Positions 38,027 through 43,908 of a stretch of 55,899 nt of DNA are shown one piece after another. Position 1 is the stretch's first letter; every line of letters starts with the position of its first letter. The DNA is from Bacteroidales bacterium (GTDB lineage Bacteria; Bacteroidota; Bacteroidia; Bacteroidales; UBA7960). The position numbers and the translations under genes were made by a program. The stretch is from positions 1 to 55,899 of the forward strand of contig SKSI01000090.1 of assembly GCA_007123065.1 (NCBI GenBank), read 5' to 3'. The notes beneath the pieces are model-generated. The model was not told the origin of the DNA, did no database searches, and worked only from the letters and a program-made list of their open reading frames with translations.

Positions 38027-38740
38027 TTATTTCGTTTCTCCTGCCTCCTTGAGAAGTTGCCTGATTTTTTCTTCTACGATCACAGCGTGTGTGTGCATAT
38101 AAGTATAAAAGGTTATGTGCAATACGTGGCTGCCATCTCCTGTATTCCTGATTCGGACAGAAGGGGTCGGACTGATCACCCACGGCAATGCCATCAGGTG
38201 TTTAAAGACCTTTTCCCTGATCTGTTCTGATGTGTGCGCAGACAAAAGGGGAATCTCTGCCTGATGCGGGAGGCTGTCTTCATTATCAGGTGGAATGACA
38301 AACAGCTGGTTGCTAAGACGTGAATAGGGAACATTAACAGTTTCGCCGGCATCATTAATCAGCTCCAGACACCGGAAACCTATCCTGCAAATTTTTCCTT
38401 CAACGATAGGTGTTTTAATGATTTGTCCCGGCTGCAGGGCTTTTTCAGTCTTTAACAGGACACCGGCAAAAAAGTCACGAAACACGAACCAGGCAAGTCC
38501 GAAGATCACCAATATAGCCATCAGGACCACGATCAGATCGTAATACAAATATTGTCCGAAAACAATCAACACACCCCAGAAAGAGAAAGCAATCCAGGCG
38601 AAAAGCTCAAGAACAGGCAACGTCCGGAGGATTCCTGTGCGCAAAGGCTTTTTTCTTATAATTGCTTTGGTGAATCGGTTTAACAAACGAAAAAGCAGCA
38701 AAAGCAAAAGGCCTGTTATGGTAAAAATCAGCAGATTCAT
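38027..38740 (-). CDS. Small MscS-like (mechanosensitive channel domain) membrane protein
   Basis: Three TM helices followed by an MscS beta-domain-like stretch PGQIIKTPIVEGKICRIGFRCLELINDAGETVNVPYSRL. The ATG overlaps the TGA of the upstream giant ORF (ATGA). Confidence 0.6.
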   Translation of the reverse strand: MNLLIFTITGLLLLLLFRLLNRFTKAIIRKKPLRTGILRTLPVLELFAWIAFSFWGVLIVFGQYLYYDLIVVLMAILVIFGLAWFVFRDFFAGVLLKTEKALQPGQIIKTPIVEGKICRIGFRCLELINDAGETVNVPYSRLSNQLFVIPPDNEDSLPHQAEIPLLSAHTSEQIREKVFKHLMALPWVISPTPSVRIRNTGDGSHVLHITFYTYMHTHAVIVEEKIRQLLKEAGETK

Positions 38741-41700: not shown

Positions 41701-43908
41701 CGAAGCCTTTGCTTCATCAATAACATTGATTGCGTCAAAGAATGATGATGCAGAAACAAGGAGCGTAGTCGGCACACTGTCGATTAACAGGTTCGCCTTA
41801 TTAAGCACCTCCTGTGGTTCTTTTGTGTTAAACTCAGGAAGTTCAATAATACACAAATCTGCCTCACGCGATTCTGCACTGATGATCTTTTCGACAGGAA
41901 GCTGTTCCACGGCATTGTTGATGACTTTTACATCGGCCTTTAGCCTGTGGTTATCAAGCAGTTGATTGATCAGGCTATAAAGAGAGTCCGTTTTCGAGCT
42001 GTCTGAGTGAACGACAAGTATCCTGAAGCTTGCTGTCCTCCAGGCATTGCTTGAGGTCAGGAATTTCATCAGTGACAGCACGAGCGACAGGGCGCGTCCT
42101 TTGCCGTTCCACCAGAAATCTATGTGTTGTTTTTTTCCAAAGCCCTTGTCTTTATCATAGCTTAAGAACAAATTATTATAATCCTGGCGCTTGAGGTTAT
42201 TCAGCAGCCTGGCAAATTTTTCGGGATTTCTCGTGTTCCTGCCCCATCCCATCAGAATGGTATTGGGTTCAAAGCCCGTAAAACCGTAAACTCTTGAAAT
42301 AACATCAATGCCTTCATAAACATCACGACAGGTATGTTTTCTGGTAAACACACCCCTGTCTGTTTGTTTGTCTGCAACCATCGGGCCATCTTTCAAGCCA
42401 AACAAAATCTCTCCTGACGGTTGTTCGGTGAGCTCAAAGTTTGTAAACACACCCATTTTCCCAACAAGGGATTTCCCCATATCTATCAGATGCGGTCTAT
42501 GTTTCTCTCCTCCACTGAACAACATCACATTAGGCCGCCAGTTATTTGGCATTTTACTGCTTGTGCTAAGCTTTCCCAGTCCGGTTTTCACCAGTGATGA
42601 CCAAACGCCTGTCCAGGTATCGCCACTTTGTAACGAGAGCTCTTTTCTCTTTAAAAACAAAAACAAAGCAATAAGCAAAACAGAGGCGACAATCAGTGCC
42701 ACAACATCCAGTTGTATCATCACAACGATGCTTGCCAGCGCCCCTATGATACCAACAATGCGGGGGATTCGGAAGGAAGGACGAAAATCGCTTCCTGCCC
42801 AGCTTTCAATTACATAAGTTATATTTAGAAAACCGTATGTGATGATGAAGAATATGGTAACGATGCGGGCAATTACATTCAGCTCCCCGATAAGAATTCC
42901 TGTTTGGGCGATCAGGTAAGTAACAATCAGTGCGTTTCTCGGTTCGCTGCCGGCGCCGTATCCCCTGGAAAAAAAACCAGGAAGGATCCGGTCGATTGAA
43001 ACTGCTTTTAGTATTCGCGGAGCACCCATTATACTCCCCAATGCTGATGATAAAGTAGCTGCAAAAACACCTGCAACTACAAGTTGCGGCACCCATGAAA
43101 TATCAAACAACACGTTGGGATCATAGGCCAGAAGGTTTCTGTCTACAGTATAAGAAAGAAACACAGTTAAACCTGTATATATTACCAATCCTGATAAAAT
43201 TGCCATAATGGTACCGACAGGAATAGCCTTCTGCGGGTTTCTTAGGTCACCGGACATAGAGACACCAGTGTTGAACCCGGTGACTGCCGGAAAGAATATG
43301 GCAAACAAGACAATCCAGGGTGTCGTCCCGTCGAATGAACGTGTAACAGGATCAACCATTGACAAGTCGTGACTGCCGGCAAATACAGACACCAACGACA
43401 GGGCCAGAACAGCAAGAATCAGATATTGTATCCTGATCGCCAAAGATGTGCTAATAAAAGTGACAATGGTGACCAAAAGCAGCATGATTGAACCGGTAAT
43501 CCTGATCGTATACAGACTCAACTCAAAACCAAAGTACGACAGAAAGGTCTCGGCAAAACCGATCAGGTAAAGGCTGATGCTGAAGGAAAACCCAACAAAC
43601 AGTGCCAGTCCGAGTGTGCCGCCAATCGGGAGACCGAGGCTGCGCGATATGATATAATACGCCCCACCCGTCTCAACCCGCTTGTCTGTAGCAAGCGAAG
43701 AAATGCTCAATCCTGTTGTAATAGAAATGACATGAGCAACCATTATAATCCCAAGGGTTGACCACAAGCCTGCCATACCTATAATCCACGGCAGACGCAG
43801 AAACAAGATCACACCCAGAATAGATAACAACGACGGAACATAAACACCGCCAAAGGCACCAAATTTCTTTGCTTTTCCCACGCTTTTTAGATTTTGTAAC
43901 TCATCCAA
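38737..43908 (-). CDS. Giant fusion protein: SLC12/cation-chloride-cotransporter-like permease, its cytoplasmic domain, a roughly 700-aa helical region, a P-loop NTPase, and a winged-helix-like tail
   Basis: 1723 codons with no in-frame stop. N-terminal [33 protein letters not shown] plus 11-12 hydrophobic segments (nt ~43866-42649). CCC C-domain-like region (nt ~42546-41734). Walker A [11 protein letters not shown] read at nt 39601-39630. Walker B-like KLIIIHD. The track start is a TTG, and an in-frame GTG at 43881 is an alternative start. Confidence 0.8.
   Translation of the reverse strand: [1723 protein letters not shown]

What the first reader, a model, noticed from the sequence alone, without database searches (positions are those of the whole stretch)
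38737..43908. Cation-chloride-cotransporter-like permease fused in one 1723-aa ORF to a P-loop NTPase and winged-helix module
Seen in sequence: the frame is uninterrupted for 5172 nt. Residues ~15-420 carry 11-12 hydrophobic segments and the motif [33 protein letters not shown]. I recognise this as the TM1 hallmark of SLC12/CCC transporters in the APC superfamily. Residues ~455-725 ([12 protein letters not shown]...ILMGWG...FRILVVHSD...DLCIIELP) resemble the CCC cytoplasmic C-terminal domain. As far as I recall, prokaryotic CCC homologues end at about this point, roughly 700-750 aa. This ORF instead continues through about 700 aa of helix-rich sequence in which I recognise no motif. It then reaches [40 protein letters not shown] (Walker A, nt 39601-39630) and [13 protein letters not shown] (Walker B-like). 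That layout matches ORC/Cdc6-like or archaeal-ATPase/AAA_16 (STAND-type) NTPases. The last ~80 aa ([34 protein letters not shown]) look like a winged helix. Inference: this would be a secondary ion transporter covalently coupled to a nucleotide-switch/sensor module. I do not know of any characterised example. It could represent a new mode of regulating ion or osmolyte transport, or a transporter-anchored signalling ATPase.
Basis: partly seen in the sequence, partly recalled or inferred. Interest (0 to 1): 0.8.

Follow-up and report, generated by a model that had tools for sequence, protein, structure and literature searches.

The report
Salt transporter fused to ATP switch
One very long, real and widely conserved bacterial gene joins a sodium-potassium-chloride cotransporter of the kind that controls cell volume in animals to a long helical stalk and an ATP-binding switch domain, and it always travels with a small pressure-valve-like channel gene; nobody appears to have studied this arrangement.

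Summary
Window 38737..43908 (-) is one uninterrupted 1723-codon ORF. It is collinear and almost gap-free with more than 118 full-length homologues (43-100% identity). A profile of its C-terminal 1000 aa finds 505 clusters (50% identity) at E<=1e-30.

The protein has four parts:
- An SLC12/CCC transmembrane domain in which every Na+, K+ and Cl- side-chain ligand of human NKCC1 is invariant.
- A CCC cytoplasmic domain.
- About 600 aa of long helices with no sequence or fold match anywhere.
- An AAA+ base, lid and winged helix whose best fold matches are archaeal Orc1/Cdc6, ORC and RuvB.

The ATPase keeps the Walker A Lys, a Walker B Asp and the sensor-1 Asn in 118/118 sequences. It lacks the classical DE pair, an arginine finger and a sensor-2 Arg, so it looks like a nucleotide switch rather than a motor.

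- A 237-aa MscS-like membrane protein overlaps the stop codon (ATGA). It follows the gene in 76 of 78 species loci.
- A full MscS gene lies next door in 23 of 53 loci.
- In Cyclobacteriaceae the helical-ATPase module is a separate gene. It keeps the same partner and sits beside Na+/H+ exchanger genes.

Best reading, inferred and not shown: a nucleotide-gated salt-uptake and release device for osmotic homeostasis. I found no curated family and no paper.

The parts
38737..43908 (-). Whole gene: 1723 codons plus TGA. Alternative start GTG at 43881.
   Evidence: Full-length homologues. Start-codon comparison.
42514..43869 (-). CCC/SLC12 transmembrane domain (residues ~14-465), LeuT/APC fold, with Na+, K+ and two Cl- sites retained
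   Evidence: AA_permease 1e-41. hNKCC1 structures E 1e-61. Y114, P207, T210, Y244, A284, S287, S288 and Y358 are invariant in 118/118. Ligand identities come from PMC9713717.
41734..42513 (-). CCC cytoplasmic C-terminal domain (residues ~466-725)
   Evidence: Aligns to KCC1/3/4 chains up to query residue ~691-703. Pfam SLC12 is weak: E 0.0027, below the gathering score.
39862..41634 (-). Orphan all-alpha region (residues ~759-1349): ten helices of 50-80 residues plus four short strands, no TM segment, no internal repeat
   Evidence: AlphaFold model pLDDT 81, pTM 0.70. No PDB or viral fold match, best E 0.03, TM ~0.1. No PDB sequence match. No Pfam match. hhalign self-comparison negative and maximum hydropathy 1.36.
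39694..39762 (-). Conserved linear motif LPFYYxxLFSGxSGxGEDFWVGM (residues 1383-1405) just before the ATPase
   Evidence: Invariant P, Y, L, F, G, F, M in A1. pLDDT <50 in isolation. Translation.
39037..39708 (-). AAA+-type P-loop NTPase base plus helical lid (residues ~1401-1624)
   Evidence: Model pLDDT 80. Fold matches Orc1/Cdc6 2qby_B 5e-9, RuvB, ORC4, RFC. AAA_16 hits in 21/21 members, none shown to reach the gathering score.
39595..39618 (-). Walker A GPRTSGKS (residues 1431-1438); K1437 invariant
   Evidence: K in 118/118.
39385..39420 (-). Atypical Walker B hhhh[NQH]D-L-[EGA]-L-W-W-E (residues 1497-1508). D1502 is invariant and there is no DE pair.
39295..39297 (-). Sensor-1 Asn1538
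   Evidence: N in 118/118.
38740..39036 (-). C-terminal winged-helix domain (residues ~1625-1723)
   Evidence: Model secondary structure H-H-H-E-E. Profile match to HlyU/ArsR/SmtB, E 0.003-0.2. HVO_A0114 0.002.
38027..38740 (-). Partner gene: 237-aa MscS-like membrane protein whose ATG overlaps the big gene's TGA (ATGA)
   Evidence: PF00924 6e-7, above the gathering score. Overlap seen. Present immediately downstream in 76/78 loci. Homologous partner also follows the stand-alone module.
44002..45660 (+). Divergently transcribed full-length MscS-family channel (552 aa)
   Evidence: PF21088, PF00924 and PF21082. NCBIfam MscS models. An MscS gene lies within 2 kb upstream in 23/53 loci, 13 divergent and 10 on the same strand.

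Best explanation
The gene encodes a membrane protein made of four parts: an NKCC-type Na+/K+/Cl- cotransporter, its usual cytoplasmic domain, a ~600-aa helical stalk of unknown fold, and an Orc1/Cdc6/STAND-like ATP-binding module (AAA+ base, lid, winged helix). It is co-translated with a small MscS-like membrane protein.

Proposed mechanism (inferred): the transporter moves salt for osmotic and cell-volume homeostasis. The ATPase acts as a nucleotide-dependent conformational or oligomerisation switch, not as a motor. Through the stalk and the MscS-like partner, it couples transporter activity to cell state such as energy charge, ionic strength or membrane tension. It would fill the regulatory role that kinase-controlled N- and C-termini play in animal CCCs.

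Shown here: the domain architecture, conservation of the ion-site and nucleotide-site residues, gene linkage to the MscS-like partner and to MscS or Na+/H+ exchanger genes, and the existence of the module as a separate protein.

Inferred: transport substrates, ATP binding, the direction of regulation, and physical contact with the partner.
For: The gene is real and conserved.
- More than 120 full-length clusters.
- The alignment is gap-poor over all 1723 residues.
- 505 clusters at 50% identity reach E<=1e-30.
- The fusion is present in 71/71 species loci and also in a 70% G+C lineage.

Transporter.
- The best matches are solved NKCC1, KCC and NCC structures.
- All hNKCC1 side-chain ligands are invariant in 118/118 sequences: Y383 and T499 for K+, S613 and S614 for Na+, Y533 for Cl1, Y686 for Cl2.

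ATPase.
- Fold matches are Orc1/Cdc6, ORC, RuvB and RFC.
- Walker A Lys, Walker B Asp and sensor-1 Asn are each 118/118.
- There is no DE pair and no conserved Arg between sensor 1 and beta5. GNPG stands where the sensor-2 Arg would be. That pattern is expected of a switch.

Linkage to ion homeostasis.
- The MscS-like partner shows a 4-nt overlap in the window and in the loci examined individually, and lies immediately downstream in 76/78 loci.
- Two different MscS types have been recruited upstream in different clades.
- The stand-alone module plus partner sits next to Na+/H+ exchanger genes in three Cyclobacteriaceae loci.

There are no defence-system hits. Neighbouring genes are housekeeping genes.

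Precedent: animal KCCs bind ATP/ADP in their C-terminal domain (PMC8280820).
Against: - No experiment of any kind exists. Substrates, ATP binding and the partner interaction are all inferred from sequence.
- The stalk has no known fold, so its role is a guess.
- Some stand-alone modules lack the partner or any nearby transporter (L090, L006). The module is therefore not strictly tied to ion transport.
- The winged helix resembles DNA-binding ArsR/HlyU domains, which a purely transport-regulating role does not need.
- An MscS gene lies upstream in only 23/53 loci.
Confidence: 0.55

Rival explanations
1. Conflict or defence system. A STAND-like NTPase senses an invader, oligomerises, and turns the fused transporter and the MscS-like partner into an ion leak that kills or arrests the cell (abortive infection).
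For: - Weak Pfam matches to AAA_16 (21/21 members) and nSTAND3 (9/21).
- A plant NLR appears among the fold hits at rank 48.
- The ATPase lacks an Arg finger, as STAND proteins do.
- Membrane effectors paired with NTPase sensors are a common defence layout (my own knowledge).
Against: - No PADLOC family matches any of the three proteins, apart from a marginal Csa3 wHTH hit at E 0.006.
- Neighbours are housekeeping genes (GlyRS, polyprenyl synthetase, PheT), and synteny is stable over 54-85% identity.
- All eight ion-site residues are invariant in 118/118 sequences, implying selection for coupled transport rather than leak.
- The alignment is collinear with few gaps and shows no hypervariable sensor region.
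- No repeat-type sensor domain follows the winged helix.
Confidence: 0.1
2. Membrane-tethered DNA-binding regulator ('transceptor'). The Orc1/Cdc6-like ATPase and winged helix bind DNA and control transcription or replication according to ion flux through the attached transporter.
For: - The best fold matches are origin-binding Orc1/Cdc6 proteins.
- The C-terminal domain matches the ArsR/HlyU/SmtB wHTH at E 0.003-0.2.
- A ~600-aa stalk could reach the nucleoid (inference).
Against: - The winged helix is an integral part of Orc/Cdc6, RuvB and STAND nucleotide modules whether or not they bind DNA (my own knowledge).
- The ArsR-type matches are marginal and below any curated cut-off.
- The constant partner is a membrane channel-like protein, not a DNA-related gene.
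Confidence: 0.1
3. ATP-driven remodelling or assembly factor. The AAA+ domain forms rings that assemble, cluster or disassemble a transporter-MscS supercomplex, with mechanical work rather than switching as its role.
For: AAA+ fold. Invariant Walker A, Walker B Asp and sensor 1. MscS channels are oligomers (my own knowledge).
Against: There is no catalytic Glu next to the Walker B Asp, no Arg finger and no sensor-2 Arg. No pore-loop or pre-sensor-1 hairpin is seen in the model's secondary structure.
Confidence: 0.08
4. Artefact: a frameshift, misassembly or chimeric contig joins two unrelated genes.
For: None found. One relative (L089) carries a single in-frame TAG, and one (L076) a frameshift.
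Against: The same 1680-1830-aa architecture occurs in hundreds of independent assemblies from different sources.
Confidence: 0.01

Closest known systems
Eukaryotic SLC12 cation-chloride cotransporters (NKCC1, NCC, KCC1-4) and the archaeal MaCCC
   Same: - 12-TM LeuT-fold domain followed by an alpha/beta cytoplasmic domain.
- E 1e-61 to 1e-68 against solved structures.
- All Na+, K+ and Cl- side-chain ligands of hNKCC1 are retained.
- A role in cell-volume and salt homeostasis is plausible.
- KCC C-terminal domains also bind ATP/ADP.
   Different: - There is no regulatory N-terminus: about 13 residues precede TM1.
- The large extracellular loops are missing.
- About 1000 extra C-terminal residues (stalk, AAA+, winged helix) are present.
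- There is an obligate MscS-like partner gene.
- The TIGR00930 score of 361 is far below its cut-off of 953.
Orc1/Cdc6 initiators and RuvB (AAA+ base, lid and winged helix)
   Same: Three-domain layout and the best fold matches. Walker A and sensor-1 Asn are present. Two helices lie between beta2 and beta3, as in the initiator clade.
   Different: - Identity is only 11-15%.
- Walker B is [NQH]D rather than DE.
- There is no Arg finger, and GNPG stands in place of the sensor-2 GxxR.
- The module is tethered to a membrane transporter.
- There is no evidence of DNA binding.
STAND / AAA_16-type signalling NTPases (NB-ARC, MalT, nSTAND families)
   Same: NBD, helical domain and winged helix. A GxP-like motif (GNPG) is present and the Arg finger is absent. 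Pfam matches to AAA_16 (21/21) and nSTAND3 (9/21) are weak. An effector-like domain lies N-terminal to the NTPase.
   Different: - No C-terminal repeat sensor; the protein ends after the winged helix.
- Sensor 1 is Asn.
- Scores were not shown to reach Pfam gathering cut-offs (window copy 25.2 vs 32.6 bits for AAA_16).
- The 'effector' is an intact coupled transporter.
- The genomic context is housekeeping.
Nucleotide- or osmolarity-sensing cytoplasmic domains of bacterial transporters (RCK/KTN of Trk/Ktr, CBS of OpuA, coiled coil of ProP, C-terminal helix of BetP) - from my own knowledge
   Same: The concept is the same: a cytoplasmic appendage senses nucleotides or ionic strength and gates osmoregulatory transport.
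   Different: The folds are unrelated. None of these is an AAA+/STAND module, none has a 600-aa stalk and none has a dedicated MscS-like partner.
MscS-family mechanosensitive channels (for the 237-aa partner)
   Same: PF00924 beta-domain above the gathering score. Three N-terminal hydrophobic helices. An FFAGVLLK stretch resembling MscS TM3b (sequence; the comparison with E. coli MscS is from memory).
   Different: About 50 aa shorter than E. coli MscS. No Pfam hit to the TM or C-terminal MscS domains and no NCBIfam hit. Always translationally coupled to the ATPase module.

Membership tests
SLC12 / CCC (TC 2.A.30) | APC/LeuT-fold 12-TM permease most similar to SLC12 members | tested here: met
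   PF00324 1e-41. The top 32 PDB hits are all SLC12 (E 1e-53 to 1e-61), against 1e-7 or weaker for other APC transporters.
SLC12 / CCC (TC 2.A.30) | Cation and chloride site residues (hNKCC1 Y383, P496, T499, Y533, A610, S613, S614, Y686) | tested here: met
   All eight are identical in the window protein and invariant in 118/118 homologues. Residue roles are taken from PMC9713717.
SLC12 / CCC (TC 2.A.30) | Cytoplasmic alpha/beta C-terminal domain | tested here: met
   KCC1/3/4 chains align through query residues ~465-700. Pfam SLC12 alone is sub-threshold at 17.2 vs 27 bits.
SLC12 / CCC (TC 2.A.30) | Curated model cut-off (TIGR00930 K-Cl cotransporter subfamily) | tested here: inconclusive
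   361 bits, E 1.5e-107, but the cut-off is 953 bits. The model is 936 positions long, and its best stretch (model positions 70-343) aligns to only 252 query residues (8-259), consistent with loops and termini that this protein lacks.
SLC12 / CCC (TC 2.A.30) | Electroneutral Na+/K+/Cl- cotransport activity | not testable with these tools
   Needs flux assays.
AAA+ initiator clade (Orc1/Cdc6) | AAA+ base, lid and C-terminal winged helix | tested here: met
   Model pLDDT 80. Top Foldseek hits are 2qby, 1w5t, 7tji and 5uj7, aligned over 370-410 columns.
AAA+ initiator clade (Orc1/Cdc6) | Walker A GxxxxGK[ST] | tested here: met
   GPRTSGKS, with K in 118/118.
AAA+ initiator clade (Orc1/Cdc6) | Walker B hhhhDE | tested here: not met
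   hhhh[NQH]D followed by an invariant Leu. The Glu two positions later is present in only 72/118.
AAA+ initiator clade (Orc1/Cdc6) | Arginine finger (box VII) and sensor-2 arginine | tested here: not met
   No conserved Arg at residues 1539-1562. GNPG stands where GxxR is expected.
AAA+ initiator clade (Orc1/Cdc6) | Initiator-specific helical insert between beta2 and beta3 | tested here: inconclusive
   Two helices (model residues 88-98 and 106-112) lie between E75-79 and E117-124. I could not superpose coordinates.
STAND NTPases (AAA_16 / NB-ARC-like) | Match to a curated STAND or AAA_16 model at the gathering score | tested here: inconclusive
   AAA_16 matches 21/21 members. The window copy scores 25.2 bits against a cut-off of 32.6; bit scores of the other members were not returned, and the best E-value is 2.5e-7. 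nSTAND3 matches 9/21, best E 2e-4.
STAND NTPases (AAA_16 / NB-ARC-like) | NBD, helical domain with GxP motif, and winged helix; no Arg finger | tested here: met
   GNPG is invariant (G 118, N 115, P 115, G 118). The winged helix is present and the Arg finger is absent.
STAND NTPases (AAA_16 / NB-ARC-like) | C-terminal repeat or sensor domain after the winged helix | tested here: not met
   The protein ends ~5 residues after the last helix of the winged helix.
MscS family (237-aa partner) | MscS beta-domain (PF00924) | tested here: met
   29.9 bits against a cut-off of 20.2.
MscS family (237-aa partner) | Pore-lining TM3 and C-terminal alpha/beta domain; heptameric channel activity | tested here: inconclusive
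   No hit to PF21088 or PF21082 and no NCBIfam hit. The TM3b-like FFAGVLLK stretch is visible in the sequence. Channel activity is not testable here.
Known anti-phage defence systems (PADLOC-DB) | Match to any defence-system protein model | tested here: not met
   Only a marginal Csa3 wHTH hit at E 0.006; nothing for the partner or the MscS.

The most novel reading that the evidence does not exclude
The helical-stalk / AAA+ / winged-helix protein and its MscS-like partner form a previously unrecognised two-component regulator of monovalent-cation transporters. It is fused in cis to an NKCC-type transporter in Bacteroidales and in a high-G+C lineage. It is encoded beside CPA-type Na+/H+ exchangers in Cyclobacteriaceae. 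On this reading it is a bacterial cell-volume controller that links salt uptake, mechanosensitive release and the cell's nucleotide state in one complex.
Probability: 0.35. Interest if true: 0.85.

Novelty: new variant of a known kind. Interest (0 to 1): 0.72.

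Why it matters
CCC transporters set cell volume and chloride levels in animals and are major drug targets. Prokaryotic members are barely studied, and their regulation is unknown.

This is a large, conserved bacterial CCC family that keeps every NKCC1 ion-site ligand. It lacks the long N-terminal region where animal CCCs carry their phospho-regulatory sites; only about 13 residues precede TM1. Instead it carries a built-in nucleotide-switch module and an obligate MscS-like partner.

If the proposed coupling is real, three things follow:
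- It would be the first secondary transporter gated by a covalently attached AAA+/STAND-type switch.
- It would give a tractable bacterial model for how salt uptake and mechanosensitive release are coordinated.
- It would assign a function to an orphan ~600-aa fold and to hundreds of 'amino acid permease' or 'hypothetical protein' annotations.

Tried and rejected
- **Fusion artefact:** rejected.
- **Split-gene form in L089:** it looked like separate CCC and module genes. It is a single in-frame TAG replacing a Lys codon in an otherwise continuous gene, and its relatives are intact fusions. It is therefore not evidence of a natural split.
- **Identifying the stalk:** the PDB profile search returned zero hits. 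Pfam on 12 members gave only three singletons. Foldseek against PDB and viral libraries gave a best E of 0.03 with TM ~0.1. The internal-repeat search by hhalign was negative, and the transmembrane scan was negative.
- **Defence-system reading:** PADLOC was negative.
- **Literature:** six full-text searches found nothing on a CCC-AAA+ fusion or an MscS-AAA+ operon.
- **Naming the organism:** cluster look-ups returned no names. The only indication is that the nearest relatives are Cock Soda Lake sediment Bacteroidales MAGs.
- **Not possible here:** both structure-prediction jobs went to the two C-terminal pieces, so I could not model a complex of the big protein with the partner. Model coordinates could not be inspected, so residue-level statements about the ATP site rest on sequence motifs.

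Full report
**1. The observation**

Window 38737..43908 on the minus strand is a single open frame of 1723 codons ending in TGA.

An identical protein (P0288), one of eight members of a 90%-identity cluster, is in public collections on a 55,899-bp NCBI contig, the same length as this window. More than 120 clusters of 1683-1763 aa cover 97-100% of it at 43-100% identity.

A MAFFT alignment of 118 of these has 1802 columns for 1723 residues. After the first 25 residues, gaps never exceed 5% in any 25-residue window. The long frame is therefore a real, selected gene and not a frameshift or chimera.

- Walker A (GPRTSGKS, residues 1431-1438) is at nt 39595..39618, not 39601..39630.
- The start may be GTG 43881 rather than TTG 43908. 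Most homologues begin M-[AG]-K-A-K-K-F-G at that point. However, the closest relative has an ATG aligned with the TTG.

**2. Anatomy**

*Transmembrane domain (residues 14-~465).*
- It matches AA_permease (1e-41) and the K-Cl cotransporter model TIGR00930 (1.5e-107).
- All 32 best PDB sequence matches are SLC12 transporters: NKCC1, KCC1-4 and NCC, at E 1e-53 to 1e-61. Other APC transporters score 1e-7 or weaker.
- I mapped the ion ligands of human NKCC1 (PMC9713717) through the printed alignment. Y383, P496 and T499 (K+), A610, S613 and S614 (Na+), Y533 (Cl1) and Y686 (Cl2) are all identical in the window protein and invariant in 118/118 homologues.
- The presence of the two Na+-site serines argues for an NKCC-like, Na+-coupled stoichiometry. 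My recollection is that KCCs lack them. The stoichiometry is an inference.

*CCC cytoplasmic domain (residues ~466-725).* KCC chains align through this region. It is the CCC cytoplasmic domain, which consists of two alpha/beta subdomains in the archaeal MaCCC (PMC4301019).

*Helical stalk (residues ~759-1349).*
- After a poorly conserved linker, the AlphaFold model built on a 12-sequence alignment folds this region with pLDDT 81 and pTM 0.70. It shows ten helices of 50-80 residues and four short strands.
- Nothing matches it. The PDB profile search returned zero hits. Pfam on 12 members found nothing consistent. NCBIfam found nothing. Foldseek against PDB and viral structures gave a best E of 0.03 at TM ~0.1.
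- It has no transmembrane segment, no detectable internal repeat and a balanced charge.

*Conserved motif (residues 1383-1405).* A strikingly conserved but low-confidence motif, LPFYYxxLFSGxSGxGEDFWVGM, precedes the ATPase.

*ATPase and winged helix (residues ~1401-1723).*
- The model has pLDDT 80 and shows an alpha/beta P-loop base, a helical lid and a winged helix.
- Its best structural matches are archaeal Orc1/Cdc6 (2qby_B, 5e-9), ORC4, Cdc6, RuvB, RFC and TnsC.
- Pfam gives only weak AAA_16 (21/21 members), AAA_14, AAA_22, nSTAND3 (9/21) and ATPase_2 hits.
- The winged helix weakly resembles ArsR/HlyU.

**3. The nucleotide site**

- K1437 (Walker A), D1502 (Walker B) and N1538 (sensor 1) are each invariant in 118/118 sequences.
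- Walker B reads hhhh[NQH]D-L-[EGA]-L-W-W-E-R, so the canonical DE pair is missing.
- No Arg is conserved between sensor 1 and beta5, where the AAA+ arginine finger sits.
- The lid carries an invariant GNPG where Orc/RFC/RuvB have the sensor-2 G-x-x-R.

This combination suggests that nucleotide binding is retained while fast, ring-dependent hydrolysis is not. That is the profile of a switch, as in STAND proteins, rather than a motor. This conclusion is an inference from motifs.

**4. Genomic context**

*In the window.*
- The stop codon of the big gene overlaps the ATG of a 237-aa gene (ATGA).
- That protein has three N-terminal hydrophobic helices and an MscS beta-domain (PF00924, above the gathering score).
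- Divergently upstream lies a full 552-aa MscS channel gene.

*Across 80 GTDB species loci fetched with the ATPase profile.* All are Bacteroidota MAGs, and the nearest come from Cock Soda Lake sediments.
- The fusion is present in 71/71 loci with a complete 5' end.
- The partner follows immediately in 76/78 loci. One apparent exception, L076, is a frameshifted copy that still has the partner.
- An MscS gene lies within 2 kb upstream in 23/53 loci.
- Two different MscS types occupy that position. A ~550-aa divergent type is found in the window's clade. A ~295-aa type lies on the same strand, 3-10 nt upstream, in the two loci examined gene by gene (L003 and L004). This suggests independent recruitment.
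- The remaining neighbours differ between clades.

**5. The module can stand alone**

- In Cyclobacteriaceae, a conserved family of 975-996 aa consists of the stalk, ATPase and winged helix without any transporter domain.
- It is followed by the homologous 234-240-aa partner, with overlapping stop and start codons (4 or 10 nt).
- It is preceded, divergently, by a Na+/H+ exchanger gene in all three distinct loci examined.
- One of those loci also has a Na+/H+ exchanger-Usp fusion directly downstream.
- Two other stand-alone copies, L006 and L090, lack the partner and any nearby transporter. The link to transporters is therefore frequent but not universal.
- A 70% G+C lineage also carries the fused gene. 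The apparent split in L089 is one in-frame TAG replacing a Lys codon.

**6. Most likely function**

The conserved unit is the stalk-ATPase-winged-helix module plus the MscS-like partner. It is repeatedly attached to, or encoded beside, monovalent-cation transporters and mechanosensitive channels.

I therefore read the window gene as an NKCC-type salt transporter for osmotic and cell-volume homeostasis. Its activity would be gated by an attached nucleotide switch working with the MscS-like partner. The switch would replace the kinase-controlled termini of animal CCCs, whose C-terminal domains also bind ATP/ADP (PMC8280820).

The architecture, residue conservation and gene linkage are shown. Substrates, ATP binding, partner contact and the direction of regulation are inferred. 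Confidence is 0.55.

**7. Rival explanations**

- **STAND-type defence system with an ion-leak effector.** This is disfavoured by the absence of PADLOC hits, the housekeeping and syntenic context, the invariant coupling-site residues and the lack of any variable sensor region.
- **Membrane-tethered DNA-binding regulator.** This is not excluded, given the Orc1/Cdc6 fold and the ArsR-like winged helix. It does not explain the constant MscS-like partner.
- **Ring-forming remodelling ATPase.** This is disfavoured by the missing catalytic Glu, Arg finger and sensor-2 Arg.
- **Assembly artefact.** Refuted.

**8. Comparison with known families and novelty**

- The N-terminal half qualifies as a CCC/SLC12 member on fold, similarity and site residues. 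It falls below the curated TIGR00930 cut-off, most likely because it lacks eukaryote-type loops and termini.
- The C-terminal module works like, and folds like, the Orc1/Cdc6-STAND group. It fails the Walker B DE, Arg-finger and sensor-2 tests for the initiator clade. It also lacks the C-terminal sensor repeats of STAND proteins. I do not file it in either family.
- No Pfam, NCBIfam or PADLOC model covers the stalk, the module as a whole or the partner beyond its MscS beta-domain.
- Six full-text literature searches found no description.

The family is large: 505 clusters at E<=1e-30. It is annotated only as 'amino acid permease', 'AAA family ATPase' or 'hypothetical protein'.

I rate it a new variant of a known kind, a CCC transporter with an unprecedented built-in regulator. 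Interest is 0.72.

Noticed in passing
window 43879..43913 (- strand): The start codon is ambiguous between TTG 43908 and GTG 43881. A TAtcTTTG box, like the Bacteroidetes -7 promoter element TAnnTTTG (recalled from memory), overlaps the TTG. If it is a promoter element, the shorter 1714-aa product would be favoured.
   Followed up: partly
window 45700..46871 (- strand): An encapsulin shell gene (Linocin_M18, 1e-87) lies next to an EncFtn cargo gene (8e-41), beside the divergent MscS. The same arrangement is present in relatives L001 and L002.
   Followed up: partly
window 47121..49184 (+): A 687-aa lipoprotein-like ORF with an HELGH zinc-peptidase motif and no Pfam match.
   Followed up: no
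window 39694..39762 (-); residues 1383-1405: The motif LPFYYxxLFSGxSGxGEDFWVGM is the most conserved stretch outside the membrane domain, yet it is modelled with pLDDT <50. It may be a docking peptide for the partner or for another protomer.
   Followed up: partly
L089 6944..6946: A relative from a 70% G+C lineage has TAG where the family has a Lys codon (AAG), inside an otherwise intact fused gene. This could be a sequencing error, a pseudogene or read-through.
   Followed up: partly
L092 9682..11808: In one Cyclobacteriaceae locus the stand-alone module and partner are followed by a Na+/H+ exchanger fused to a Usp domain. From memory, Usp may be the same fold class as the CCC cytoplasmic domain. 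If so, the module might recognise Usp-like transporter tails.
   Followed up: no
L090 2169..9988: A stand-alone module (995 aa) lies directly after a TamB/DUF748 gene, with no MscS-like partner. The module family therefore has contexts unrelated to ion transport.
   Followed up: no
window 30674..33286 (-): An 870-aa secreted protein. Its counterpart in relatives carries lamin-tail (LTD), Big_5 and FlgD_ig domains.
   Followed up: no
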